Shown in pieces: positions 1 to 11,725 of a stretch of 12,900 bases of DNA. Each line of letters starts with the position of its first letter. The stretch's first letter is position 1. Location of the stretch: the UHGV virus genome UHGV-0200016. One strand, written 5' to 3'. The notes beneath the pieces are model-generated. The model searched no databases, was not told where the DNA came from, and saw only the letters and a list, made by a program, of their open reading frames with translations. This DNA is from a virus. A program made the position numbers and the translations under genes.

Positions 1-852
1 GTTTTCAAATTGTTCCGGACTGAGGCCGCCACACCAACTGTGCCGCCGCCACCGATTGTAATCACATTCGATATAATTAAACACCGTTGCCCGCATTATT
101 TCCCGGCTGATAAAGTGTTCTCCATGGATACATTCCACTTTCAGCGAATGAAAGAAGCTTTCCACGCAGGCATTATCGTAGCAGCAACCTTTTGCGCTCA
201 TACTTCCACGCAGATTATGCCGCTTCAGTTGCGCCTGATAATCTGCTGAACAGTACTGGCCTCCACGGTCCGTGTGAACGATAACGTTCCGGGGCCTCTT
301 ACGCCGCCACAGCGCCATCTGCAGGGCATCGCAGGCCAGTTGCGCCGTCATGCGTGGCGACATTGACCAGCCAATAACGGCACGTGACCACAGGTCAATG
401 ACCACTGCCAGATACAGCCAGCCTTCATCTGTACGTAAGTACGTGATGTCTCCTGCCCACTTCTGGTTCGGGCCACTGGCGTAAAAATCCTGCTCCAACA
501 GATTTTCTGACACAGGCAGGCCGTGTGCGCGGTAGCTGACCGGGCTGAACTTCCGGGAGGCCTTTGCCCTCAGTCCCTGACGGCGCAGGCTTGCCGCCAC
601 GGTTTTTACGTTAAAGGGGTAACCCTGAGCACGCAGTTCATCCGTCAGGCGTGGGGCACCGTAACGCTGTTTTGACCGGGTAAAAGCCGCGAGGACAACG
701 CTGTCGCAGTGTTGGCGGAACTGCTGACGCGTGCTTATCCTTGTCCGCCGCTGACACCACGTATACCAGCCGCTGCGGGCCACCCGGAGCACGCGGCACA
801 TTGCTTTGATGCTGAACTCAGCCTGATGTTTTTCAATAAAGACATACTTCAT
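1..852 (-). CDS. insF: IS3 transposase OrfB (InsF), 3'-partial (last few codons and stop lie before position 1)
   Basis: Minus-strand translation from the ATG at 852-850 gives [22 protein letters not shown]... and runs to ...[10 protein letters not shown] at the window edge, matching IS3 InsF as I recall it. It overlaps the orfA stop as expected for the -1 frameshift arrangement. It is absent from the ORF track because no stop lies in the window. Confidence 0.9.
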
Positions 853-1148
853 TTCAGGCGCTTCGCGAAGTATGTCGCGGCCTTTTGGAGGATAGCCAGC
901 TCTTCATCCCGTTCTGCCAGCTGGCGTTTGAGACGTGCAATCTCGGTAGACATCTCCAGTTCACGTTCAGAAGACGTCTGCTGATTTTGCTGTTTACTGC
1001 GCCAGTTGTAGAGCTGTGATTCATACAGGCTGAGTTCACGGGCTGCGGCAGTAACACCGATGCGTTCAGCAAGCTTCAGGGCTTCACTGCGAAATTCAGG
1101 CGAATGCTGTTTACGGGGTTTTTTACTGGTTGATACTGTTTTTGTCAT
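849..1148 (-). CDS. insE: IS3 transposase OrfA (InsE), 99 aa
   Basis: ORF track 849..1157 (minus) gives [34 protein letters not shown]...[15 protein letters not shown]. The canonical protein begins at MTKTVS (ATG at 1148-1146); the track begins at an upstream GTG. HTH-type IS3-family OrfA. Confidence 0.9.
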
Positions 1149-1269
1149 GTGAGTCACCTCTGACTGAGAGTTTACTCACTTAGCCGCGTGTCCACTATTG
1201 CTGGGTAAGATCAGGATTCTATCGATGTGGTCAATGGAAGACGGTTACCAGAGATAGGGCTTATGCATA

Positions 1270-1296
1270 AAAAAATAAGCCCGTGTAAGGGAGATT
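1270..1296. other. attL core (P2 att core, 27 bp)
   Basis: Exact 27-mer AAAAAATAAGCCCGTGTAAGGGAGATT, identical to the copy at 11555-11581, lying 80 bp from the integrase stop. It matches the P2 att core as I recall it. Confidence 0.75.
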
Positions 1297-1375
1297 TAGG
1301 GTGTCACCAGTAGGGGCTTTCAACGGTACAATGCGGGTTTGAGCGGCATAAATTACCACTGAAAGCCCTTAAACG

Positions 1376-2389
1376 TTACTCTACTGTGGACACTGTGTGG
1401 ACACTCTCGACCTCAGTACCACCTCTTAGCGGATTAAGAGAAATGGCGTCCTGAAGGTACTCTGGCGCAAAATGAGCGTAAACCATAGTTTGCTCAATCC
1501 GCGTGTGACCTAGTATCCGTTGTAGCGTGATAATACTTCCTCCATTAATCATGAAATGAGTGGCAAAGCTGTGCCTTAGTGCATGTGTAGCTTGCCCCAT
1601 TGGCAAATCCGGTTTTATTGCTTTCATTGTTCGTCTGAAGCGAGGGTAATCAGCATCAGGGAATAAAAAACCTCGTTTGTTATCCGCGATCATTTTGGCA
1701 ACAGCCTCTGAGATCGGGACGGTGCGTGGTTTGTTTGTTTTCGTTTTAACAAACGTGACGCGGTTATGGATGATATTTTCTGCTTTCAAACGAGCTGCTT
1801 CTCCCCAACGTGCTCCAGTACTCAGGCAAAGAATCGCAATCTTTTTGTTGTCGCCGTCAAGAGCAGCAAGCAGTAAGGCAATTTCTTCCTGCGTGAGATA
1901 GCCTGTGTCTGGTTTTTCCTCCTTAAGCCTTTTTGTCCCTCTGATAGGGTGCTCACCAAAGAATAACTCCGCTTCAATCAGGGCTGTAAACATGCCGCTA
2001 ATACATGTTAAATCACGATTGATACTCGAAGGTTTAATACCCTGACTTCTTCGGGTGGCGCAGTACTGGCTGATAAGCGATTTCGTAATTTGAAATGCGC
2101 ATGGGTCATTCGTTATTTTTGTGAAGATTTCAATTTTCCCAAGATTAGATTTCCCATGCTCTTCGTGTTTACCCTTTAAATCCCACCAGATCTGTGTCAG
2201 CTCCGACAGACGTCGCTTGTCTGTTGGTTTTGATAGCCATTCTTTATTGTGGTGGTTGTACAACGTGTATTTCTCGAAAGCGACAGCTTCGCTTTTCTTA
2301 TCAAACTTCCTACGGATGCGTTTTCCATTACGTCCAGTAGGGCGGATGTCCACTTCATATCGACCATCATCGAGTTTTTTGATTGCCAT
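1376..2389 (-). CDS. int: P2-type tyrosine integrase, 337 aa
   Basis: ORF track 337 aa: MAIKKLDDGRYEVDIRPTGRNGKRIRRKFDKK ... HALRHSFATHFMINGGSIITLQRILGHTRIEQTMVYAHF. It carries the tyrosine-recombinase R..HxxR..Y box and is close to residue-for-residue my recollection of P2 Int. Confidence 0.95.
   Translation of the reverse strand: MAIKKLDDGRYEVDIRPTGRNGKRIRRKFDKKSEAVAFEKYTLYNHHNKEWLSKPTDKRRLSELTQIWWDLKGKHEEHGKSNLGKIEIFTKITNDPCAFQITKSLISQYCATRRSQGIKPSSINRDLTCISGMFTALIEAELFFGEHPIRGTKRLKEEKPDTGYLTQEEIALLLAALDGDNKKIAILCLSTGARWGEAARLKAENIIHNRVTFVKTKTNKPRTVPISEAVAKMIADNKRGFLFPDADYPRFRRTMKAIKPDLPMGQATHALRHSFATHFMINGGSIITLQRILGHTRIEQTMVYAHFAPEYLQDAISLNPLRGGTEVESVHTVSTVE
1385..1404. promoter_or_regulatory. 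Tandem TGTGGACAC direct repeats; probable Int arm-type binding sites (P arm), inside the 3' end of int
   Basis: tgtggacac at 1385-1393 and 1396-1404, 11 bp apart. A matching pair with the same spacing lies on the other arm at 11496-11514. P2 Int arm sites are, from memory, direct repeats of roughly this consensus. Confidence 0.5.
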
Positions 2390-2504
2390 CAGAAAACCCT
2401 CCGAGTGGTGTGTTTTTTTGCGACTACTAATCGCTTTTTTCGTGGTGGCTGAAATTTAGCCACCAATAGTAGGCACTTGTGATGAATATATTCACGATGA
2501 ATTG

Positions 2505-2804
2505 TTAACCAGTCTTTTGACCGGAGTGGGGCGACGTTGTTTCGTTTTGCCCAAAGTGTGCGAGAGCGGGCGCAATTTGCCCGGACTCAGGAGCGATCTG
2601 ATTGGTCATGAACCATAAAGTGTATTTGGTGAATTGTGGGGTCTGCAGGATGTTCATCATGACATCTGTTGGAGGTGTTGAACGACCACTTTCATAGTAA
2701 CTCAGCGTGCCATACGGAACCCCTGTTAAATCAGCAAGTTGTTGTCTGCTCAAATACTCTGATTTTCGCATTAAGACTATCTTCTCGCTTATCGTGTTTG
2801 ACAT
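2505..2804 (-). CDS. C: P2 immunity repressor C, 99 aa
   Basis: ORF track 99 aa: MSNTISEKIVLMRKSEYLSRQQLADLTGVPYGTLSYYESGRSTPPTDVMMNILQ... It has an HTH, sits between int and cox and is divergent from cox, as in P2. Confidence 0.9.
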   Translation of the reverse strand: MSNTISEKIVLMRKSEYLSRQQLADLTGVPYGTLSYYESGRSTPPTDVMMNILQTPQFTKYTLWFMTNQIAPESGQIAPALAHFGQNETTSPHSGQKTG

Positions 2805-2918
2805 GGTGTTTAGATCTCAATAGTATTTAGTTTAGATGTAGATTGTTTAGTGCTTGGATGTGGGCACTAAAAGGCATTATAAGACATTAAACGCAATTCA
2901 TGAGGGCTAGAGGACGAC
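2805..2918. promoter_or_regulatory. P2 Pc/Pe divergent promoter and operator (lysogeny/lysis switch) region
   Basis: A 114-bp AT-rich intergenic region between divergent C and cox start codons, containing reiterated TTTAG elements (tatttagtttagatgtagattgtttagtg, 2823-2852). Exact operator boundaries not determined. Confidence 0.5.
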
Positions 2919-3527
2919 ATGAGCAAGCAAGTAACACTCATGACTGATGCGATTCCTTATCAGGAGTTCGCAAAACTAATAGGAAAATCGACAGGAGCGG
3001 TTCTCGGCGCGCGTCATATTCATATCACCAGAACGACGGACTGGCGCATTGTTCCGAAAGTTCCGGTCGTGGAGCCTTTAACTTTAAAAAGCGGCATCGC
3101 CGCGCCTCGGAGTCCTGTCAATAACTGTGGAAAGCTCACCGGTGGTGATACTTCGTTACCGGCTCACACACCTTCTGAGCACGCCGCAGCAGTGCTTAAT
3201 CTGGTTGATGACGGTGTTATTGAATGGAATGAACCGGAGGTCGTGAGGGCGCTCAGGGGGGCATTAAAACACGACCTGAGAACACCAAACCGTCAGCAAA
3301 GAAACGGAAGCCCGTTAAAACCACATGAAATTGCACCATCGGCCAGACTGACCCGGTCGGAAAGAATGCAAATTACCCGTATCCGCGTTGACCTTGCTCA
3401 GAACGGTATCAGGCCGCAGCGATGGGAGCTTGAGGCGCTGGCGCGTGGCGCGACCGTAAATTATTACGGGAAATCTTTCAATTATCAGGTCGCTGATGAG
3501 TGGCCTGGATTTTTGTTACCCATTTGA
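2919..3527 (+). CDS. cox N-terminus (about 28 codons) fused in frame to an unrelated 174-codon reading frame, possibly the 3' part of an early/replication gene; probable deletion product
   Basis: ORF track 202 aa. The first 28 residues, MSKQVTLMTDAIPYQEFAKLIGKSTGAV, match P2 Cox (a 91-aa protein). From about nt 3003 the sequence departs completely (LGARHIHITRTTDW...) and continues to 3527. SD agagga lies upstream of the ATG. Confidence 0.6.
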   Translation: MSKQVTLMTDAIPYQEFAKLIGKSTGAVLGARHIHITRTTDWRIVPKVPVVEPLTLKSGIAAPRSPVNNCGKLTGGDTSLPAHTPSEHAAAVLNLVDDGVIEWNEPEVVRALRGALKHDLRTPNRQQRNGSPLKPHEIAPSARLTRSERMQITRIRVDLAQNGIRPQRWELEALARGATVNYYGKSFNYQVADEWPGFLLPI

Positions 3528-3786
3528 GTAAAAATGCAGCGTGATTTTATATGCCTTTGAATGGATTATGCGAAGCGCCTCTAAGGCAGATGAGGAGCAA
3601 TAGCATGCTGAAGTAGAAGGCTAAATTGTATTGAATCGCTAGCATGTAATTTAAAGCAGCTATTTGATTCGAGTCATAAAAGAGCATCTATTTCGGCTAA
3701 TAAAACCATTGCGAGTGACCTTTTGTCGAAGCATAATTCATCTCGAGCGAAGTCTTGCTAGTCTTTCATCGGAATGATGACAGGCG

Positions 3787-3817
3787 CAAAAAAACCACCC
3801 TGGCAGGTGGTTTTTTT
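3787..3817. terminator. Bidirectional rho-independent terminator
   Basis: aaaaaaaccaccctggcaggtggttttttt: a GC-rich hairpin (ccaccctg/caggtgg) flanked by an A-run on the 5' side and a T-run on the 3' side, so it is terminator-like on both strands. Confidence 0.6.
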
Positions 3818-3829
3818 GTTTGAAGCATA

Positions 3830-3943
3830 CTAAAGAATAATACTTACATGGATATTACTGACGTTTACTGACAAACCACTTGGACTACCATATGGATAGC
3901 CAAAGAGGGCCAGAACGAGAATGCAGTAATAGCACTTCTTCAT
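3830..3943 (-). CDS. Hypothetical small hydrophobic protein, 37 aa (below ORF-track cutoff)
   Basis: Minus-strand ATG at 3943 preceded by a strong SD (caggaggagat-ATG). Translation is MKKCYYCILVLALFGYPYGSPSGLSVNVSNIHVSIIL, with stop at 3832-3830 immediately followed by the terminator at 3787-3817. Coding status is unproven. Confidence 0.3.
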   Translation of the reverse strand: MKKCYYCILVLALFGYPYGSPSGLSVNVSNIHVSIIL

Positions 3944-4518
3944 ATCTCCTCCTGTAAGCAGAGGGCAATTTCCGCCGATATATGCGCTTCTAAGGCGGAG
4001 TTACTATTTAGCGAAGTCTTGCCCTGAAATAATGCTCTGTTTAAACGCAAAGTGATCTGGCATATCACCGAACAGAGAGCCTGAACAACACAACATATAG
4101 TATGTCGTTGTTTCTGGTTGCATTTTATGTTGTGTAATCCTGGTTTTGCATCAAGGATGTTTGAGCTTTTTTTGATATAGCTCAAAGTAAAAAGCAGAGA
4201 CTACGGATGATAAGGTATTGAAAGCAATGTAAATTTTTTAAAGTTATTGGCGGCTAAAAAATGCACGGTTTCAATATGGTGGACTTAAATAAGCAATTAA
4301 AAAAGTCATAAATATCACTAAAATCATGGTGTTACGTTTTTTTTGTGGGAGCTGCGGTGACGCTTAAGTTGATTTGTCATTAAATAAGCCGTGCATGCAA
4401 CAAGTGAATGTTTTTGCATGCGTCGGGGATGCCCGTTCCGGCTGCTTGCGGTCAGAGCTGGTGCGGATCCATAGTATCTATGCAACTGCATTAAAACCGC
4501 CACATGAAGCGGGCGGGC

Positions 4519-4537
4519 GAGGCGGGGAAAGCACTGC
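4519..4537. other. P2-type cos site (19-nt cohesive-end sequence)
   Basis: ggcgaggcggggaaagcac matches the P2/186 cohesive-end sequence as I recall it. It sits in a GC-rich island of about 165 bp (roughly 4380-4545) between AT-rich segments. Confidence 0.6.
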
Positions 4538-4694
4538 GCGCAAAATGTTCTTGAAATATTTGTGACATAAGCTAAGACACAAAATGATTGAAGGGCAGAG
4601 CAAATCCTACAGTCCTATGCTATTGTCTCATGTAATGCAGATAAGTTGAAAATTATCTTAAAATATAAGAGTAAAGACATTAAAAGGATTGGTT

Positions 4695-6956
4695 ATGAAT
4701 AATAACTCTAAGTTATTAAGCTCTATCTCGGTTGAATCTGATTTCGAGAACCTTATAAAACTATATGCAAATGAGTTATTTGGTGGTGAAACATATCTGA
4801 TCGGTGGTCCTTGGGATAATGGAAAGGATTTGGTAATAAAAAAGGGGAATAGAGAGTTAAAGCAAGCTGTACAAATATCTATTCAAGAGAAAAATATTGA
4901 AAGTAAGATTGCTCAAGATATTAAAAAAGTGGCGAAATTGGTTGATGATCATTATTACCCGCCTGTATTATATTTTTTTTGGAGTCATTCAATATCTGAG
5001 CATTTATTGGATAAGATAAGAACAAATGCTCTTAAGGAAGATTTGATTAGATTGGAGTTTTATGATGCCAAACGGATCTCTCAAGATATTACAGATAAAT
5101 ACCCAGGGTTATTGAATTACTTAATAAAAGATATACATAAGATAAGTTCTAATACTGAAGATGCAATTAACTTGCAACAAAGAGCATTTTATGAATATTT
5201 ATTGTTAAGCAAAGATAGTGCTAATTTAAAAAATGAAATAATAAAAGCTAGTATTATGTCTAATTTATATGATGGCGGGAAGTCTGCTGATGATATTCTA
5301 GAGAATCTAAAAGGTGTTAGTCTTACAAAACGTAGTTTACAGGGTAGACTGCAAAACCTAATTCATCAAAATAAAATTAGATTGAATGATGGTATATATA
5401 GCCTGTCACCAGAGGAAATTAAAAAGCTTGAGAATATAAATCTCCGTGAAATTGTCAGAAAAGAAGAGTTGTTATCAGTAATAAATAATGAGTTGCCCAG
5501 AAATACAAGTAAGAATCTGGCTGTTCAAGTTGTTGATTTAATAATAAAGGCTTATGAAGAATCAATAAATGTCCAATTAACAGAAAGTAAATTTGAGCCT
5601 CCAAAATTACAGATATTCAAAACTATAGTACATAATTTAAAGGTGTTGATACGGCAGGAATATGATTTGGATGATGAGTCTTCGGATGCTTTAGCAAAAA
5701 AGCTAATGGAGTTGGCTGGTCAAAATGACTATTTATCCGAGCATTGCTCTGCTAAATTATGTGTGAATCTTTTAAGTGATCGGAAATTAGAGAAATATAT
5801 TGAAAATAAAAATTTTTATATCTACTTTGATGCGCCTGTTCTTATTCCATATTTGATAACTCTTATGTTTGGAGATTTTGAGCTTTTTGATAAGTCGATT
5901 AAAAATATAAATTTACTGAGAGAGTGCATAAATCCCCTCAAAAATAAACATCTGAGAGTTTCTAATGAACATTTTGAAGAAACTGCAAGGCACTACTCTG
6001 AAGCTGAAAAATTAAGTCAGTTTGTAACTGAAGATTTAATTAGTCAACTTGGTGAGTCGAAAAATGTATACTTTAATGTTTATATGCGGTGGAAAAACAA
6101 ACAGCCTAAACGTACAGATTTTTACGATTTTACTTATGCTTTTCTAGGGTTGGATAAAGATGATATTTATGCGGGGTATAAGCATGACACATTTGCGCAA
6201 TGCATTCATAATTTACTAGCGTCAGCAAATATTGTTGTAATTGATAATAAAGACTCGGTGTCACAAGACTTTGTATTTAAAATAAAGCAAAAACTTAAAA
6301 GGGATTTGAATTCTTCACGTCCCGTTCGAGCCATAGAAAATGATGTTATATGTGCTGCAACTTTGAGTGATGAAACCCTACATCTTGATTCCAATGGTTA
6401 CTTCAGTACTCCCATGCTAATAACGCTTGATAGATCTCAATATCTATTGAGAAGCATAGTAAGAAATGAAAGGAGACATGCTGAATGGTTGGTTTATACC
6501 CCTCAAAGAGCAATTGAACGTCTTTCCTTGGTGGGTTTAAAAATATCATCGGAATCGTTAAAGGATGGTGTTTTAGCAACCATATCAGAAGAATATTTCT
6601 TTAAAGAAAGTTCCAGTAGTTTGATTGATACTTTGGCTATTATCATTGGAGATAATCAAGCAAGGCAAGGAGATGTTATTAGGCTTGCATCGCTTTTAAA
6701 AAGAAAGGTCAATGAGGAATCTATTGAGAATTCAGAAATTGATATTGAACACTATAATAACATTAGTTATGTGCTTCTTTTCATTCATCGTGAATTTAAA
6801 TCTGAATTTTCAAATATAATAAAAATTTTTGCTGAGGATAGTAGGCGAGATAAACTGGTTGAAGTTTTGTTATCCACTATTCAAGGAGTTTTTGATGAGA
6901 GTAAAAAGGAAATCTTGCGCTCAAATATAGGACGGTTGTTGGCTGAAATGGGATGA
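4695..6956 (+). CDS. Hypothetical protein of about 753 aa with an N-terminal restriction-endonuclease-like (Mrr-type) motif; candidate anti-phage defence protein
   Basis: ORF track 4689..6956 (755 aa from a TTG). I prefer the ATG at 4695, which has SD aagga 6 nt upstream. The gene is strongly AT-rich and Lys/Asn/Ile-rich, unlike the flanking P2 genes. Residues about 25-100 (FENLIKLYANELFGGETYLIGGPWDNGKDLVIKKGNRELKQAVQIS...PVLYFFWSHSIS) resemble the Mrr catalytic-core pattern. A hairpin terminator follows at 6973-7005. Confidence 0.85.
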   Translation: MNNNSKLLSSISVESDFENLIKLYANELFGGETYLIGGPWDNGKDLVIKKGNRELKQAVQISIQEKNIESKIAQDIKKVAKLVDDHYYPPVLYFFWSHSISEHLLDKIRTNALKEDLIRLEFYDAKRISQDITDKYPGLLNYLIKDIHKISSNTEDAINLQQRAFYEYLLLSKDSANLKNEIIKASIMSNLYDGGKSADDILENLKGVSLTKRSLQGRLQNLIHQNKIRLNDGIYSLSPEEIKKLENINLREIVRKEELLSVINNELPRNTSKNLAVQVVDLIIKAYEESINVQLTESKFEPPKLQIFKTIVHNLKVLIRQEYDLDDESSDALAKKLMELAGQNDYLSEHCSAKLCVNLLSDRKLEKYIENKNFYIYFDAPVLIPYLITLMFGDFELFDKSIKNINLLRECINPLKNKHLRVSNEHFEETARHYSEAEKLSQFVTEDLISQLGESKNVYFNVYMRWKNKQPKRTDFYDFTYAFLGLDKDDIYAGYKHDTFAQCIHNLLASANIVVIDNKDSVSQDFVFKIKQKLKRDLNSSRPVRAIENDVICAATLSDETLHLDSNGYFSTPMLITLDRSQYLLRSIVRNERRHAEWLVYTPQRAIERLSLVGLKISSESLKDGVLATISEEYFFKESSSSLIDTLAIIIGDNQARQGDVIRLASLLKRKVNEESIENSEIDIEHYNNISYVLLFIHREFKSEFSNIIKIFAEDSRRDKLVEVLLSTIQGVFDESKKEILRSNIGRLLAEMG

Positions 6957-7047: not shown

Positions 7048-8082
7048 TTAGGTATCGCAAGTATCTAGTGAGTAGTTTTTAAAGCGGATGACCTCCTGAC
7101 CGAGCCAGCCGTTTATCTCGCGGATCCTGTCCTGTAACGGGATAAGCTCATTGCGGACAAAGACCTTTGCCACTTTCTCAATATCGCCCAGTGACCCGAC
7201 GTTCTCCGGCTTGCCGCCCATCAACTGAAAGGGGATGCGGTGCGCGTCCAGTAGGTCAGCGGCGCTGGCTTTTTTGATATTAAAAAAATCGTCCTTCGTT
7301 GCGACTTCACTGAGCGGGATAATTTTAATGCCGTCGGCTTTCCCCTGTGGGGCATAGAGAAACAGATTTTTAAAGTTGTTGCGGCCTTTCGACTTCACCA
7401 TGTTTTCGCGGAGCATTTCGATATCGTTGCGATCCTGCACGGCATCAGTGACGTACATGATGTATCCGGCATGTGCGCCGTTTTCGTAATACTTGCGGCG
7501 GAACAGCGTGGCCGACTCATTCAGCCAGGCAGAGTTAAGGGCGCTGAGATATTCCGGCAGGCCGTACAACTCCTGATTAATATCCGGCTCCAGCAGGTGA
7601 AACACGGAGCCGGGCGCGAAGGCTGTCGGTTCGTTGAAGGACGGCACCCACCAGTAAACATCCTCTTCCACCCCACGGCGGGTATATTTTGCCGGTGAGG
7701 TTTCCAGTCTGATGACCTTACCGGTGGTGCTGTAACGCTTTTCCAGAAACGCATTACCAAACACCAGAAAATCCAGCACAAAGCGGCTGAAATCCTGTTG
7801 TGAAAGCCACGGATGCGGGATAAATGTCGAGGCCAGAATATTACGTTTGACGTAAATCGGTGAGCTGTGATGTACGGCAGCACGCAGGCTTTTTGCCAGA
7901 CCGGTAAAGCTGACCGGTGGCTCATACCATCTGCCGTTACTGATGCACTCGACGTAATCCAGAATGTCACGGCGGTCGAGTACCGGCACCGGCTCACCAA
8001 AGGTGAATGCCTCCATTTTCGGGGCGCTGGCGGTCATTGTTTTTGCCGCAGGTTGCGGTGTTTTCCCTTTTTTCTTGCTCAT
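7048..8082 (-). CDS. Q: P2 portal (capsid portal) protein Q, 344 aa
   Basis: ORF track 344 aa: MSKKKGKTPQPAAKTMTASAPKMEAFTFGEPVPVLDRRDILDYVECISNGRWYEPP... It matches my recollection of P2 gpQ in sequence and length, and its start overlaps the stop of the upstream P fragment (TGATG). Confidence 0.9.
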   Translation of the reverse strand: MSKKKGKTPQPAAKTMTASAPKMEAFTFGEPVPVLDRRDILDYVECISNGRWYEPPVSFTGLAKSLRAAVHHSSPIYVKRNILASTFIPHPWLSQQDFSRFVLDFLVFGNAFLEKRYSTTGKVIRLETSPAKYTRRGVEEDVYWWVPSFNEPTAFAPGSVFHLLEPDINQELYGLPEYLSALNSAWLNESATLFRRKYYENGAHAGYIMYVTDAVQDRNDIEMLRENMVKSKGRNNFKNLFLYAPQGKADGIKIIPLSEVATKDDFFNIKKASAADLLDAHRIPFQLMGGKPENVGSLGDIEKVAKVFVRNELIPLQDRIREINGWLGQEVIRFKNYSLDTCDT

Positions 8083-8360
8083 CAGTAAAACTCCAGAATG
8101 GTGGATGTCAGCGGGGTGCTGATACCGGCGGTGAGTGGCTCATTTAACAGGGCGTGCATGGTCGCCCAGGCGAGGTCGGCGTGGCTGGCTTCCTCGCTGC
8201 GGCTGGCCTCATAGGTGGCGCTGCGTCCGCTGCTGGTCATGGTCTTGCGGATAGCCATAAACGAGCTGGTGATGTCGGTGGCGCTGACGTCGTATTCCAG
8301 ACAGCCACGGCGGATAACGTCTTTTGCCTTGAGCACCATTGCGGTTTTCATTTCCGGCGT
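8082..8360 (-). pseudogene. P: 3' fragment of terminase ATPase gene P (about 90 C-terminal codons); the 5' part is deleted
   Basis: A minus-strand open frame ends at 8082 (...LTAGISTPLTSTILEFY) with its stop overlapping the Q start, as for P2 P-Q. P is about 590 aa in P2, so only the 3' end is present. Assignment rests on synteny and coupling, not on confirmed homology. The upper boundary is approximate. Confidence 0.5.
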
Positions 8361-9245
8361 GTACCCGCACCGGATGTGGTCGAGGAGCTGGACTTTGAAA
8401 CCATTCTTGCCGAACGCAAGGCGACACTGATTTCCCTTTACCCGGAAGACCAGCAGGAGGCGGTCGCCCGTACCCTGACGCTGGAATCTGAGCCTCTCGT
8501 CAAACTGCTGGAGGAAAATGCTTATCGTGAGCTTATCTGGCGTCAGCGTGTGAATGAGGCCGCACGGGCGGTGATGCTGGCCTGTGCTGCCGGTAATGAC
8601 CTTGATGTGATTGGTGCCAATTACAACACCACGCGCCTGATTATCACCCCGGCAGATGATTCGACTATCCCGCCGACACCGGCAGTGATGGAGTCTGACA
8701 CCGATTACCGGCTGCGTATTCAGCAGGCGTTTGAAGGTTTAAGCGTCGCCGGGTCGGTGGGTGCCTATCAGTATCATGGCCGCAGTGCCGACGGGCGTGT
8801 CGCGGATATCTCTGTCACCAGTCCGTCTCCGGCCTGTGTCACCATCTCTGTGCTGTCACGTGAAAATAACGGTGTCGCTTCCGAAGACCTGCTGGCGGTG
8901 GTGCGTAACGCCCTTAATGGCGAGGACGTCAGGCCGGTGGCCGACCGCGTGACCGTGCAGTCTGCCGCCATCGTTGAATACCAGATAAACGCCACGCTGT
9001 ATCTTTACCCTGGTCCCGAAAGCGAACCCATTCGCGCTGCCGCCGTGAAAAAACTGGAAGCGTATATCACGGCACAGCACCGGCTGGGGCGCGACATCCG
9101 TCTGTCTGCCATTTATGCCGCTTTGCATGTGGAAGGCGTACAGCGTGTCGAACTGGCTGCACCGCTGGCCGACATCGTGCTCAACAATACGCAGGCGTCT
9201 TTCTGTACCGAATACCACGTCGTGACCGGAGGCTCGGATGAGTGA
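8361..9245 (+). CDS. J: Baseplate assembly protein J, apparently missing its first roughly 10 codons and its native start and promoter
   Basis: ORF track 8154..9245. From VPAPDVVEELDFETILAERKATLISLYPEDQQEAV... onward it matches P2 gpJ as I recall it. The 70 codons upstream in frame (MHGRPGEVGVAG...) are antisense to the P fragment and are not J-like. Confidence 0.75.
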   Translation, partial: VPAPDVVEELDFETILAERKATLISLYPEDQQEAVARTLTLESEPLVKLLEENAYRELIWRQRVNEAARAVMLACAAGNDLDVIGANYNTTRLIITPADDSTIPPTPAVMESDTDYRLRIQQAFEGLSVAGSVGAYQYHGRSADGRVADISVTSPSPACVTISVLSRENNGVASEDLLAVVRNALNGEDVRPVADRVTVQSAAIVEYQINATLYLYPGPESEPIRAAAVKKLEAYITAQHRLGRDIRLSAIYAALHVEGVQRVELAAPLADIVLNNTQASFCTEYHVVTGGSDE

Positions 9246-9849
9246 TTCGCGACTGCTGCCGACCGGCTCATCACCGCTTGAGGTCGCCGCCGCAAAAGCC
9301 TGTGCGGAAATTGAAAAAACGCCGGTCAGTATTCGTGAGTTGTGGAACCCGGACACCTGCCCGGCAAATCTGCTGCCGTGGCTGGCGTGGTCATTTTCGG
9401 TTGACCGCTGGGATGATAAGTGGCCGGAAGCGACAAAACGCGCTGTTATCCGCGATGCGTATTTCATTCACTGCCATAAGGGCACTATTGGTGCGATTCG
9501 CCGTGTGGTGGAGCCACTCGGCTATCTGATTGAGGTGAGGGAGTGGTGGCAGCTCAACGAGGAGCCGGGGACGTTCCGTATCGTTGTCGGCGTGCTTGAG
9601 CAGGGTATTACCGAGGAAATGTATCAGGAGCTGGAGCGCCTCGTTGCTGATGCAAAACCGGCAAGCCGCCATCTGACGGGACTGGCTATCAGTTTAAGTA
9701 CAACCGGCAACATTTTTGCCGGTGCGGGATGCTATCACGGCGACGCCCTGACGGTTTATCCCTACACCCCGGAGGCCATTATTGTCGGAGGGGATTATTT
9801 CCCGGCCTCGGCCATTCATTTAATTGATAACCTGAGAGTAAACGCATGA
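9238..9849 (+). CDS. I: Baseplate protein I (P2 gpI-like), 203 aa
   Basis: ORF track 203 aa: MSDSRLLPTGSSPLEVAAAKACAEIEKTPVSIRELWNPDTCPANLLPWLAWSF... The ATG overlaps the J stop (ATGA) and the stop overlaps the next gene's start, giving the J-I-H order of P2. Confidence 0.85.
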   Translation: MSDSRLLPTGSSPLEVAAAKACAEIEKTPVSIRELWNPDTCPANLLPWLAWSFSVDRWDDKWPEATKRAVIRDAYFIHCHKGTIGAIRRVVEPLGYLIEVREWWQLNEEPGTFRIVVGVLEQGITEEMYQELERLVADAKPASRHLTGLAISLSTTGNIFAGAGCYHGDALTVYPYTPEAIIVGGDYFPASAIHLIDNLRVNA

Positions 9850-11153
9850 CAGTGAAATACTACGCCATTCTGACTAATCAGGGCGCAGCACGGCTGGCTA
9901 ACGCGACGATGCTCGGCAGTAAGCTGAATCTGACGCAAATGGCCGTTGGTGATGCGAATGGTGTATTACCGACACCAGACCCGGCACAGACAAAACTGAT
10001 TAACCAGAAACGCATTGCACCGCTGAATATTCTGAGCGTTGACCCTAACAATCAGAGCCAGATTATTGCGGAGCAAATTATCCCTGAAAACGAGGGAGGA
10101 TTCTGGATCCGTGAGATTGGGCTTTATGATGATGAAGGCGTACTCATTGCGGTGGCGAACTGCCCGGAAACGTACAAACCGCAGTTGCAGGAAGGCAGTG
10201 GTCGTACCCAGACTATCCGCATGATTCTGGTTGTCACGAATACCGAAGCTATTACGCTGAAAATCGACCCGTCGGTGGTACTGGCGACCCGTAAATACGT
10301 GGATGATGAAGTCCTGGAATTAAGGCTGTATGTGGATGAACAGATGAGAAACCACATTGCCGCACAGGATCCTCATACCCAGTATGCACAGAAACATAAT
10401 CCGACATTTACCGGAGAACCAAAAGCGCCGACGCCTGCCGCAGGAAATAACACCACGCGGATTGCGACCACTGCGTTTGTACAGGCTGCTATTACCGCTC
10501 TGATTAACGGCGCGCCAGCCACGCTGGACACACTGAAAGAAATTGCCGCGGCCATTAACAATGACCCGAAATTCAGCACCACCATTAACAATGCGCTGTC
10601 AGGTAAGCAGCCACTGGATGAGACGCTGACTCATTTGAGTGGAAAGGATGTTGGAGCCTACACCGGCGTAACGGCAAAGTGGTTACACACCAAAGACCCG
10701 AAGCCGCAAAAGCAGAAGGTAAAACTGAAACGCAAAAAGAAAGAGAAACACCTGCGCGCACTGGAGCACCCGAAAGCGAAACCGGTCAGGCAGAAGAAAG
10801 CGCCAAAAGTACCGGAAGCGCGCGAAGGTGAATACATGGCCGGTGAGGCTGACAACGTTTTTGCCCTGACCACGGTATATGCCACGAAAGCACAGGCCAT
10901 GCGTGCTGCTCAGGCGAAGTGGGATAAACTGCAACGGGGCGTTGCGGAGTTCTCCATCATCCTGGCTACCGGTCGTGCAGATATTTACACGGAAACACCG
11001 GTCAGAGTGTCAGGCTTTAAGCGCGTCATAGACGAGCAGGACTGGACAATCACTAAGGTGACACATTTTCTGAATAATAGCGGCTTCACGACGTCCTTGG
11101 AGCTTGAGGTCAGGCTTTCTGATGTGGAGTACGAAACAGAAGATGATGAGTGA
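9846..11153 (+). CDS. Chimeric ORF: tail-fibre H-like N-terminal domain (about 270 aa) fused to the C-terminal part of tail protein D; deletion product
   Basis: ORF track 435 aa. The N-terminus (MTVKYYAILTNQGAARLA...GGFWIREIGLYDDEGVLIAVANCPETYKPQLQEGSGRTQT...) has the P2 gpH-type tail-fibre N-terminal signature. The C-terminus (...PVRVSGFKRVIDEQDWTITKVTHFLNNSGFTTSLELEVRLSDVEYETEDDE) is the gpD end that immediately precedes ogr in P2. A Lys-rich linker lies between. G, Z/fun, FI, FII, E, T, U and most of D are absent. Confidence 0.65.
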   Translation: MTVKYYAILTNQGAARLANATMLGSKLNLTQMAVGDANGVLPTPDPAQTKLINQKRIAPLNILSVDPNNQSQIIAEQIIPENEGGFWIREIGLYDDEGVLIAVANCPETYKPQLQEGSGRTQTIRMILVVTNTEAITLKIDPSVVLATRKYVDDEVLELRLYVDEQMRNHIAAQDPHTQYAQKHNPTFTGEPKAPTPAAGNNTTRIATTAFVQAAITALINGAPATLDTLKEIAAAINNDPKFSTTINNALSGKQPLDETLTHLSGKDVGAYTGVTAKWLHTKDPKPQKQKVKLKRKKKEKHLRALEHPKAKPVRQKKAPKVPEAREGEYMAGEADNVFALTTVYATKAQAMRAAQAKWDKLQRGVAEFSIILATGRADIYTETPVRVSGFKRVIDEQDWTITKVTHFLNNSGFTTSLELEVRLSDVEYETEDDE

Positions 11154-11234: not shown

Positions 11235-11453
11235 ATGTTTCATTGTCCTTTATGCCAGCATGCCGCACATGCGCGTACAAGCCGCTATATCACTGACACG
11301 ACAAAAGAGCGTTATCACCAGTGCCAGAACGTGAATTGCAGCGCCACGTTCATCACTTATGAGTCGGTACAGCGATACATCGTGAAGCCGGGAGAAGTCC
11401 ACGCCGTGAGGCCGCACCCGTTGCCGTCAGGGCAGCAAATTATGTGGATGTAA
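11235..11453 (+). CDS. ogr: P2 late-gene transcriptional activator Ogr (zinc-finger), 72 aa
   Basis: MFHCPLCQHAAHARTSRYITDTTKERYHQCQNVNCSATFITYESVQRYIVKPGEVHAVRPHPLPSGQQIMWM with the C-x2-C...C-x4-C zinc finger. The ORF track begins 21 codons upstream (11172), but the canonical start is the ATG at 11235. Confidence 0.9.
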   Translation: MFHCPLCQHAAHARTSRYITDTTKERYHQCQNVNCSATFITYESVQRYIVKPGEVHAVRPHPLPSGQQIMWM

Positions 11454-11554: not shown

Positions 11555-11581
11555 AAAAAATAAGCCCGTGTAAGGGAGATT
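11555..11581. other. attR core (P2 att core, 27 bp)
   Basis: Exact copy of AAAAAATAAGCCCGTGTAAGGGAGATT, followed by AT-rich non-phage DNA leading into the convergent host gene. Confidence 0.75.
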
Positions 11582-11725
11582 ACACAGGCTAAGGAGGTGG
11601 TTCCTGGTACAGCTAGCATTTTATGGGTTATGTTTTTCAGCGAAACGGATGATAACCTTAATAAATGCAGCTGTATGTGATCGGTTTCTAAGAATTTTCC
11701 ATCCGGGAAAAATAATCGAAATTAA

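What the first reader, a model, noticed from the sequence alone, without database searches (positions are those of the whole stretch)
2919..3527. cox truncated after about 28 codons and fused in frame to an unrelated 174-codon segment
Seen in sequence: the ORF starts exactly like P2 cox (MSKQVTLMTDAIPYQEFAKLIGKSTGAV) but from about nt 3003 continues as LGARHIHITRTTDWRIVPKV...RIRVDLAQNGIRPQRWELEALARGATVNYYGKSFNYQVADEWPGFLLPI for a total of 202 aa, against 91 aa for P2 Cox. A 174-codon open frame is unlikely to be out-of-frame noise, so the downstream part is probably the true frame of another gene's 3' end; by position in the P2 map that would be a replication or early gene such as A, which is my inference. 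The consequence is loss of intact Cox (excisionase and directionality factor, also the Pc repressor) and of B/A replication functions, so the remnant cannot excise or replicate normally while the C repressor and int remain.
Basis: partly seen in the sequence, partly recalled or inferred. Interest (0 to 1): 0.45.

Follow-up and report, generated by a model that had tools for sequence, protein, structure and literature searches.

The report
Deletion scar fusing P2 cox to A
The 202-codon gene is the scar of a 3.7-kb deletion inside a decayed P2 prophage that joined the first 28 codons of the excision gene cox, in frame, to the last 174 codons of the replication gene A; this is ordinary prophage decay that leaves the element unable to excise or replicate.

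Summary
The observation and the interpretation both hold. ORF 2919-3527 (+) is P2 Cox residues 1-28 joined to gpA residues 585-end. One 3,697-bp deletion (P2 26090-29786) with a 2-nt TC microhomology at window 3002-3003 made it. The deletion removed cox codons 29-91, orf78, B, orf80-83 and A codons 1-584.

What remains of Cox lacks residues shown experimentally to be essential. What remains of gpA lies wholly outside the Phage_GPA catalytic domain, although the ori nick site survives at window 3109.

The fusion sits in a 10.3-kb P2 remnant (attL 1270, attR 11581) at the yegR-cyaR/yegQ site, which has two further deletions. C repressor and Ogr are 100% identical to P2, Int 99.4%.

The exact protein occurs on 126 contigs, always in this remnant where checked, so it is not an artefact. 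No phage record contains it.

Four other complete E. coli genomes carry independent cox-to-A deletions at the same site. All five break in or just before cox, and only this one is in frame. That fits "grounding" by loss of the excisionase, a known concept.

Low interest. A side observation is an uncharacterised 755-aa cargo gene with predicted Mrr-like and PIN nuclease folds.

The parts
1..1212 (-). IS3 copy inserted just outside attL. It is absent from some otherwise identical contigs and is not part of the prophage.
   Evidence: RefSeq annotation of H56 calls it an IS3 family transposase. L004 carries the same remnant without it and matches the window only from 1213.
1270..1296 (.). attL core, 27 bp, AAAAAATAAGCCCGTGTAAGGGAGATT (P2 attP core 24356-24382)
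   Evidence: BLAST map against P2, sequence print, P2 annotation.
1376..2389 (-). int, 337 aa, 99.4% identical to P2 Int (E161D, A327V)
2505..2804 (-). C immunity repressor, 99 aa, 100% identical to P2 C
2798..2901 (.). Intact Pe/Pc switch region. Pe -35 is at 2798-2803 and -10 at 2821-2826, operators O1 at 2808-2815 and O2 at 2830-2837, Pc -10 at 2876-2881 and -35 at 2896-2901. All positions were transferred from the P2 annotation.
   Evidence: Window 2850-2918 is identical to P2. The whole stretch 1270-3007 is 99.4% identical to P2. The promoter scan recovers Pe as TTGACA-17-TAGTAT. P2 feature table.
2919..3001 (+). cox', codons 1-28 of P2 cox (beta1, alpha1, turn, and the first part of helix alpha2)
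3002..3003 (+). Deletion junction: a TC dinucleotide shared by both parental sequences (microhomology)
3004..3527 (+). 'A, codons 585-758 of the P2-type replication initiator gene A plus its natural stop codon, in frame with cox'
   Evidence: (phrog_91 'nicking at origin of replication')
3109..3109 (+). Retained P2 ori nick site (P2 29892). From 30 nt before the nick to 30 nt after it the sequence is identical to P2; the only differences in the printed comparison lie 31-38 nt upstream.
   Evidence: P2 annotation
3528..4486 (.). Spacer between A and cos, shared at 97-99.8% identity with many P2-like prophages. It contains a 37-aa ORF at 3830-3943 (-).
4487..4534 (+). cosR-homologous end (P2 33546-33593)
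4689..6956 (+). Cargo gene in the gpA-cos-gpQ hotspot, 755 aa (753 aa in RefSeq), function unknown
7048..8082 (-). Portal gene Q, 98.8% identical to P2 Q
8082..8363 (-). P', the 3' end of the large terminase gene
8362..8363 (.). Second deletion junction (P2 1502 joined to 11317, TA microhomology). It removes the 5' part of P and O through W.
8364..9849 (+). 'J (baseplate, lacking its first codons) and I
9846..11153 (+). H'-'D in-frame fusion (tail fibre N-terminus joined to gpD residues 215-387), the third deletion
11235..11453 (+). ogr, 100% identical to P2 Ogr
11555..11581 (.). attR core, the same 27 bp as attL. It overlaps the 3' end of the sRNA gene cyaR (11558-11643, -).

Best explanation
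The ORF is a by-product of illegitimate recombination. A single 3,697-bp deletion with 2 nt of microhomology inside a resident P2-type prophage joined cox codon 28/29 to A codon 585, and the join happens to be in frame. No function needs to be assigned to the chimeric product. Its Cox part is an incomplete helix-turn-helix without the wing or the oligomerisation helices. Its gpA part is the C-terminal tail that lies outside the nickase domain. The effect that matters is the loss. Without Cox the prophage cannot excise or shut off Pc, so C stays on. Without B and A it cannot replicate. The prophage is 'grounded' at the yegR-cyaR att site while it keeps immunity (C), int, ogr, both att cores and the hotspot cargo gene. 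The fusion ORF sits behind the intact, C-repressed early promoter Pe, so it is probably almost silent. The structure, the endpoints and the losses are shown by the data. The silence of Pe, the inertness of the protein, and the idea that loss of cox is what lets such remnants persist are inferences.
For: Both flanks are collinear with P2 and with an intact sister prophage at the same site, and the junction geometry is identical in both comparisons. Pfam sees only Phage_Cox positions 1-29 of 87 and no Phage_GPA domain in the fusion, whereas full-length gpA has Phage_GPA at residues 133-462. Cox mutagenesis shows that R29A, R51A, R73A, R78A, W81A, W84A and a stop at codon 70 are null (PMC3936717). 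C is 100% identical to P2 C and Pe with O1 and O2 is intact. The exact 202-aa protein is on 126 contigs, and all 24 contigs read show the same remnant. The same element has two further deletions, the one mapped at base level (P'/'J) with a 2-nt overlap. Five independent cox-to-A deletions occur at this site in complete genomes, with microhomologies of 0-3 nt, and only one is in frame. The literature describes grounded prophages (PMC6379469). It also reports that defective P2 elements keep defence cargo while the replication gene is the core gene most often pseudogenised (PMC13586616).
Against: There are no expression data. An in-frame join behind an intact promoter and ribosome-binding site could in principle be translated. 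The A' segment shows only 4 amino-acid changes against 17 nucleotide changes relative to Ecol_AZ159, but that comparison reflects divergence between phage lineages, not post-deletion evolution, so it says nothing either way. The survivorship argument for cox rests on five events and a crude null model (P about 0.001).
Confidence: 0.92

Rival explanations
1. The chimeric protein has been co-opted. For example, the gpA C-terminal tail expressed from Pe, or the retained chromosomal ori, could interfere with replication of incoming P2-like phages as a dominant-negative factor or decoy.
For: The join is in frame behind an intact Pe and the native cox ribosome-binding site. The ori nick site is perfectly conserved. 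The sequence is stable across 126 contigs.
Against: The four other independent deletions are out of frame or lack the cox start codon, and two of them have lost the ori nick site, so neither feature is a common property of these remnants. The 126 contigs are identical, which points to clonal descent and is no evidence of selection. C is intact and should keep Pe repressed. The fusion has no recognisable complete domain, and the single-sequence model is poor (mean pLDDT 48).
Confidence: 0.04
2. The junction is an assembly or sequencing artefact: a chimeric contig joining two parts of an intact prophage.
For: None specific. Only one of 5,426 complete genomes has the junction.
Against: The exact protein is recorded on 126 contigs from NCBI, ENA and Logan assemblies. 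It occurs in a complete chromosome and in a metagenome contig of 68 kb, with the same neighbours. The rest of the element is also deleted, so no intact prophage exists there to be mis-joined.
Confidence: 0.01
3. The protein is a natural long Cox-family variant of some P2-like phages, not a fusion.
For: GenBank DAG44166.1 labels the identical protein 'Regulatory phage protein cox'.
Against: No record among 50,697 phage genomes aligns to both halves in one place; the matches cover residues 29-202 only and lie inside gene A. The two halves map 3.7 kb apart in P2 and in the intact sister prophage. Only 29 of 87 Cox profile positions are present.
Confidence: 0.005
4. The junction arose in two or more steps, or by recombination between two different P2-like prophages, rather than by one deletion. 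This is suggested by the left part being 99.4% and the right part only 94.3% identical to P2.
For: Identity to P2 is unequal on the two sides. A second genome has a slightly smaller deletion nested within this one (26155|29720).
Against: An intact prophage at the same site (Ecol_AZ159) matches both sides well (99.6% and 98.8%), so one deletion in such an ancestor suffices. The nested-deletion genome has different cargo and a 95%-identical A' segment, so it is not an ancestor.
Confidence: 0.05

Closest known systems
P2 remnant of E. coli K-12 (ogrK / yegZ) at the yegR-yegQ locus
   Same: Same chromosomal attachment site and the same right end (D', ogr, attR next to cyaR/yegQ). RefSeq notes 'in E. 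coli K-12 this is in prophage P2 remnant' on the homologous ogr fragment.
   Different: From my own knowledge, the K-12 remnant has lost everything except D' and ogr. The present element still has int, C, the Pe/Pc switch, cox'-'A, cos, cargo, Q, P', 'J, I and H'-'D.
Defective P2-like elements described in PMC13586616 (NAR 2026)
   Same: Incomplete P2 prophages in which mobility genes are pseudogenes, the replication gene most often, while neighbouring hotspot genes remain intact. Here A is truncated and the adjacent cargo ORF is intact and belongs to a conserved family.
   Different: That study reports no specific cox-A fusions or endpoints. Here the pseudogene forms an in-frame chimera and the cargo gene is not recognised by PADLOC.
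'Grounded' prophages (PMC6379469) and P2 cox-defective lysogens
   Same: Loss of the excision directionality factor locks the prophage in the chromosome while immunity is kept.
   Different: Classical cox mutants are point mutants of otherwise complete phages. Here cox is lost together with the whole replication module and most structural genes.
Independent cox-to-A deletions in strains 2017.11.01CC, LR-28, NMBU-W12E19 and EC2001
   Same: Same att site, identical C protein (WP_001306384.1), left endpoint in or just before cox, right endpoint in A, 0-3 nt of microhomology.
   Different: The endpoints differ (P2 26155|29720, 26194|29940, 25995|29940, 26161|28634). None gives an in-frame Cox-gpA chimera. 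The cargo differs (retron-type reverse transcriptase, DUF7380 plus DarT, SIR2 proteins), and so do the other deletions.

Membership tests
Cox family (Pfam PF10743, P2 Cox / PDB 4LHF) | Complete winged helix-turn-helix (beta1-alpha1-T-alpha2-beta2-loop-beta3) | tested here: not met
   Only profile positions 1-29 of 87 are present. The alignment to 4LHF stops at residue 28. Helix alpha2 residues R29 and R30 and the wing are missing.
Cox family (Pfam PF10743, P2 Cox / PDB 4LHF) | C-terminal helices alpha3-alpha4 that mediate oligomerisation (R73, R78, W81, W84; a stop at codon 70 is null) | tested here: not met
   The sequence after residue 28 is gpA. The functional data are from PMC3936717.
P2 gpA rolling-circle replication initiator (Pfam PF05840 Phage_GPA) | Catalytic Phage_GPA domain carrying the active-site tyrosine pair (YIAKY, residues 450-454 in P2 gpA) | tested here: not met
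   The domain maps to gpA 133-462 and the tyrosine motif to 450-454. The fusion keeps only residues 585-758 and has no Phage_GPA hit. That Y450 and Y454 are the catalytic residues comes from my own knowledge of the P2 literature; it was not found in the library.
P2 gpA rolling-circle replication initiator (Pfam PF05840 Phage_GPA) | C-terminal region homologous to gpA and containing ori within its coding sequence | tested here: met
   95-98% identity to gpA C-termini. phrog_91 profile positions 602-747 match. The nick site is conserved at window 3109.
Defective (cryptic) P2-like prophage | P2 gene order between directly repeated att cores at a known P2 attachment site | tested here: met
   The 27-bp cores lie at 1270-1296 and 11555-11581. 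All segments are collinear with P2 in prophage order. The element lies between yegR and yegQ.
Defective (cryptic) P2-like prophage | Loss of essential genes | tested here: met
   Three deletions remove B, A (5' part), P (5' part), O, N, M, L, X, Y, K, R, S, V, W, the 3' part of H, G, FI, FII, E, T, U and the 5' part of D.
Microhomology-associated illegitimate deletion | A single breakpoint with both flanks collinear to the parent and only a few shared bases at the join | tested here: met
   The TC overlap is the same against P2 and against the intact Ecol_AZ159 prophage.
Functional chimeric (exapted) gene | The chimeric architecture is conserved across diverged lineages, or there is evidence of expression or function | tested here: not met
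   Every occurrence is the identical sequence in the same remnant. Independent deletions do not recreate the chimera. Expression cannot be tested with these tools.

The most novel reading that the evidence does not exclude
The cox-to-A deletion is not random decay but one instance of a recurrent, selected 'grounding' lesion. Under this reading, P2 prophages at the cyaR/yegQ site persist as immune, defence-carrying islands only after losing cox together with A. There may also be a preferred break site 48 nt downstream of the ori nick, since two independent remnants share the identical right endpoint at P2 29940. In the strongest form of this reading, the in-frame Cox(1-28)-gpA(585-758) product or the retained chromosomal ori additionally acts against incoming P2-like phages.
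Probability: 0.15. Interest if true: 0.45.

Novelty: new member of a known kind. Interest (0 to 1): 0.2.

Why it matters
On its own it matters little. It is a clean, base-resolved example of how a temperate phage is immobilised, and it corrects database labels. The identical protein is called 'Regulatory phage protein cox' in GenBank, and RefSeq annotates only a truncated replication endonuclease.

Collectively, the five independent cox-to-A deletions at one attachment site form a small natural experiment on prophage domestication. Each keeps an identical C repressor and a different hotspot cargo. This suggests that loss of the excisionase, rather than of any arbitrary gene, is the step that lets a defence-carrying P2 remnant persist. 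The idea could be tested on the hundreds of thousands of draft E. coli genomes.

Tried and rejected
1. AlphaFold2 on the fusion as a single sequence gave mean pLDDT 48. That is too poor for a fold search, so no structural claim is made about the gpA tail.

2. I considered that retention of ori explains why the A 3' end is kept. I rejected this because LR-28 and NMBU-W12E19 break 48 nt downstream of the nick site and have lost it.

3. I considered that right endpoints cluster at ori. I rejected this after a longer split query removed most of the ascertainment bias and found EC2001 with a right endpoint at P2 28634.

4. I tested whether LR-28 and NMBU-W12E19 share ancestry, which would explain their identical right endpoint. 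This is not supported: their A' segments are 92.5% identical and differ at nt 14 and 22 after the junction. The coincidence is left unexplained.

5. A 10-nt repeat, CGTCGGATGA, occurs in cox (P2 26089-26098) and in A (P2 29721-29730). It abuts one endpoint in each of two genomes, but no junction is the product of recombination between the two copies. I treat this as coincidence.

6. Pfam, PADLOC, NCBIfam and PHROGs searches of the cargo protein returned nothing, apart from a sub-threshold Mrr_cat hit. A PDB sequence-profile search gave nothing meaningful.

7. A literature search for the gpA active-site and cis-action papers returned nothing relevant. A search for the cyaR-P2 att relationship gave no direct statement.

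Full report
**1. The observation**

The ORF listing returns an ORF at 2919..3527 on the + strand. The upstream region with the ribosome-binding site is visible.

Residues 1-28 are identical to P2 Cox. phmmer against the PDB aligns residues 1-29 to 4LHF chain A residues 1-29, and the first mismatch is at position 29. Pfam Phage_Cox matches only profile positions 1-29 of 87.

Residues 29-202 are gpA. tblastn against 50,697 phage records gives 83 records that cover at least 80% of the query. All of these matches lie inside gene A, with E-values around 1e-104. Identity to P2 gpA over residues 29-198 is 95.3%. No phage record aligns to both halves in one place.

**2. The junction**

BLAST and base-by-base comparison place cox sequence through window 3003 (P2 NC_001895 position 26089). 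A sequence starts at window 3002 (P2 29785). The two share the dinucleotide TC.

The deletion is 3,697 bp (P2 26090-29786). Because cox and A are offset by 2,029 nt (1 mod 3), a deletion of length 1 mod 3 is in frame. Cox codon 28 is therefore followed by gpA codon 585.

According to the P2 feature table, the deleted block holds cox codons 29-91, orf78, B, a putative terminator, orf80-83 and A codons 1-584.

An apparently intact P2-like prophage sits at the same chromosomal site in strain Ecol_AZ159. It matches the window at 99.6% on the left and 98.8% on the right of the junction. It gives the same geometry: TC overlap and a 3,697-bp deletion. It also shows that the fusion ends at the natural stop of this A allele (758 aa), with 4 amino-acid differences in 174.

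**3. What is lost and what is kept**

Full-length gpA carries its Phage_GPA domain at residues 133-462 and a YIAKY motif at 450-454. From my own knowledge of the P2 literature, these are the two active-site tyrosines. None of this is in the fusion.

The Cox structure paper shows the fold beta1-alpha1-T-alpha2-beta2-L-beta3-alpha3-alpha4. R29A, R51A, R73A, R78A, W81A and W84A abolish function, and so does a stop at codon 70 (PMC3936717). A 28-residue stub therefore cannot be a working Cox.

The ori nick site annotated at P2 29892 maps to window 3109. From 30 nt before it to 30 nt after it the sequence is identical to P2; the only differences in the printed comparison lie 31-38 nt upstream.

The C protein is 100% identical to P2 C, Ogr is 100% identical, and Int is 99.4% identical with two substitutions. 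Window 2850-2918 is identical to P2, and the rest of the Pe/O1/O2/Pc region lies in a stretch that is 99.4% identical to P2. The promoter scan recovers Pe as TTGACA-17-TAGTAT at 2798-2826.

**4. The surrounding element**

Mapping the whole window on P2 gives the following picture.

- A 10.3-kb remnant is bounded by identical 27-bp att cores at 1270-1296 and 11555-11581.
- It lies between yegR and yegQ/trhP.
- The attR core overlaps the sRNA gene cyaR (Rfam, 100.7 bits).

Besides the cox-A deletion there are two more deletions.

- P2 1503-11316 is missing, joining P' to 'J with a 2-nt TA overlap.
- An H'-'D fusion of 435 aa is also in frame.

An IS3 copy occupies window 1-1212, just outside attL. 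It is missing from an otherwise identical metagenome contig.

**5. Artefact or real?**

The exact 202-aa protein is on record on 126 contigs from NCBI, ENA and Logan. All 24 contigs that were read show the same neighbourhood.

One complete genome, strain 1218KP, matches the whole window at 99.99%. RefSeq annotates only a truncated 'replication endonuclease' there. GenBank DAG44166.1 calls the identical protein 'Regulatory phage protein cox'.

**6. Recurrence**

I used split queries to look for other genomes in which cox-5' and A-3' lie close together. The queries joined C-to-cox-codon-20 (or int-to-cox-codon-20) to the A 3' end. They found five of 5,426 complete genomes.

All five are at the yegR-yegQ site and carry the identical C protein WP_001306384.1. 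Their cargo genes and their other deletions all differ.

| Strain | Junction on P2 coordinates | Overlap | Frame |
|---|---|---|---|
| window / 1218KP | 26089\|29785 | TC | in frame |
| 2017.11.01CC | 26155\|29720 | none | out of frame |
| LR-28 | 26194\|29940 | TA | out of frame |
| NMBU-W12E19 | 25995\|29940 | TA | cox start codon deleted |
| EC2001 | 26161\|28634 | CAG | out of frame |

The in-frame chimera is therefore unique to this lineage. One of the four junctions that retain the cox start codon is in frame, which is what chance predicts.

All five left endpoints fall in or just before cox. Under a crude null of uniformly distributed endpoints within the space my search could detect, each event has a 0.257 chance of doing so, and five events have a chance of about 0.001. 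This is my own rough estimate. It is conditional on retention of int and C, and it assumes the events are independent.

A simple reading is survivorship. A prophage that lost replication but kept Cox could still excise and be lost, whereas one that lost cox is locked in place. This matches the 'grounded prophage' concept (PMC6379469). It also matches the recent report that defective P2 elements retain intact defence genes while the replication gene is the core gene most often pseudogenised (PMC13586616).

**7. Unexplained points**

LR-28 and NMBU-W12E19 share the same right endpoint to the nucleotide (TA|CCGGCTCC, 48 nt past the nick site). Yet their A' segments are only 92.5% identical and already differ within 25 nt of the junction. 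This may be a hotspot or a coincidence; I cannot tell.

Retention of ori is not a shared feature, because those two genomes lack it. Right endpoints are not confined to the ori region either, since EC2001 breaks at 28634.

**8. Mechanism and verdict**

The best-supported account is a single microhomology-associated deletion in an Ecol_AZ159-like P2 prophage. It produced an accidental in-frame cox'-'A ORF behind a promoter that the intact C repressor should keep off. The biological effect is the loss of excision and replication functions, not a gain of function.

A role for the chimeric protein or the chromosomal ori against incoming P2-like phages is not excluded, but nothing here supports it.

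The case is a new instance of a well-known kind of event and is of low interest by itself.

**9. Side observation: the cargo gene**

The gene between cos (4487-4534) and Q is a 755-aa ORF in the gpA-cos-gpQ hotspot defined by Rousset et al. (PMC9122126).

- It has no hit in Pfam, PADLOC, NCBIfam or PHROGs.
- It has no hit in phage records.
- It occurs in one complete E. coli genome only.
- It nevertheless belongs to a conserved family of about 753-762-aa proteins, 36-73% identical, in Enterobacterales, Vibrio, Aeromonas, Shewanella and Burkholderia.
- In the two relatives whose context was retrieved it is a solitary gene in mobile-element contexts.

Invariant acidic residues D381, E431, D552 and D581, and the invariant N-terminal pattern G40-D43-G45-D47...Q62, fit PIN and Mrr-type active sites. 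That assignment is inference. The only sequence support is a sub-threshold Mrr_cat hit (E = 0.096).

Noticed in passing
[not shown]
   Followed up: partly
L003 12220/12221; L007 12603-12604; L008 12404-12405; L014 10858-10860: Four further independent cox-to-A deletions lie in P2 remnants at the same yegR-yegQ site in other complete genomes. All have the identical C repressor protein but different cargo (retron-type RT, DUF7380 plus DarT/macro, SIR2 proteins). All left endpoints are in or just before cox.
   Followed up: yes
L007 12603 and L008 12404 (both = P2 29940): Two remnants with different left endpoints and only 92.5%-identical A' segments share exactly the same right deletion endpoint, TA|CCGGCTCC, 48 nt downstream of the ori nick. 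This may be a hotspot or a coincidence and remains unexplained.
   Followed up: partly
window 11558-11643 (-): The sRNA gene cyaR (RyeE) matches Rfam RF00112 at 100.7 bits. Its 3' end overlaps the 27-bp attR core (11555-11581), so the P2 attachment site lies within the end of cyaR.
   Followed up: partly
window 9846-11153 (+): A second in-frame chimeric ORF in the same remnant: a tail-fibre H-like N-terminus (Phage_tail_fib, residues 1-150) fused to gpD residues 215-387. RefSeq annotates it as an intact 'phage tail-collar fiber domain-containing protein'.
   Followed up: partly
window 8362-8363: A third deletion junction joins the 3' end of terminase gene P (minus strand) to baseplate gene J lacking its first codons (P2 1502|11317, TA overlap). 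It removes about 9.8 kb of head, lysis and tail genes.
   Followed up: yes
window 3830-3943 (-): A 37-aa hydrophobic ORF (MKKCYYCILVLALFGYPYGSPSGLSVNVSNIHVSIIL) with a strong AGGAGG ribosome-binding site. It lies in the A-to-cos spacer, which is shared at 97-99.8% identity by many P2-like prophages. Read by eye, an A-run/CCACC...GGTGG/T-run hairpin lies next to it at about 3787-3817. Function unknown.
   Followed up: no
window 1-1212: An IS3 copy is inserted 57 bp outside the attL core. It is present in 1218KP and GCA_048475675.1 but absent from an otherwise identical ENA metagenome contig, so it is a recent polymorphism within the lineage.
   Followed up: partly
window 2919-3527: Database annotation of this ORF is inconsistent. 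GenBank DAG44166.1 names it 'Regulatory phage protein cox' in a contig labelled Caudoviricetes sp. RefSeq marks only the A part as a pseudogene. PHROGs contains a family of about 222 aa (phrog_14675, 'unknown function') that is essentially the gpA C-terminal tail.
   Followed up: no
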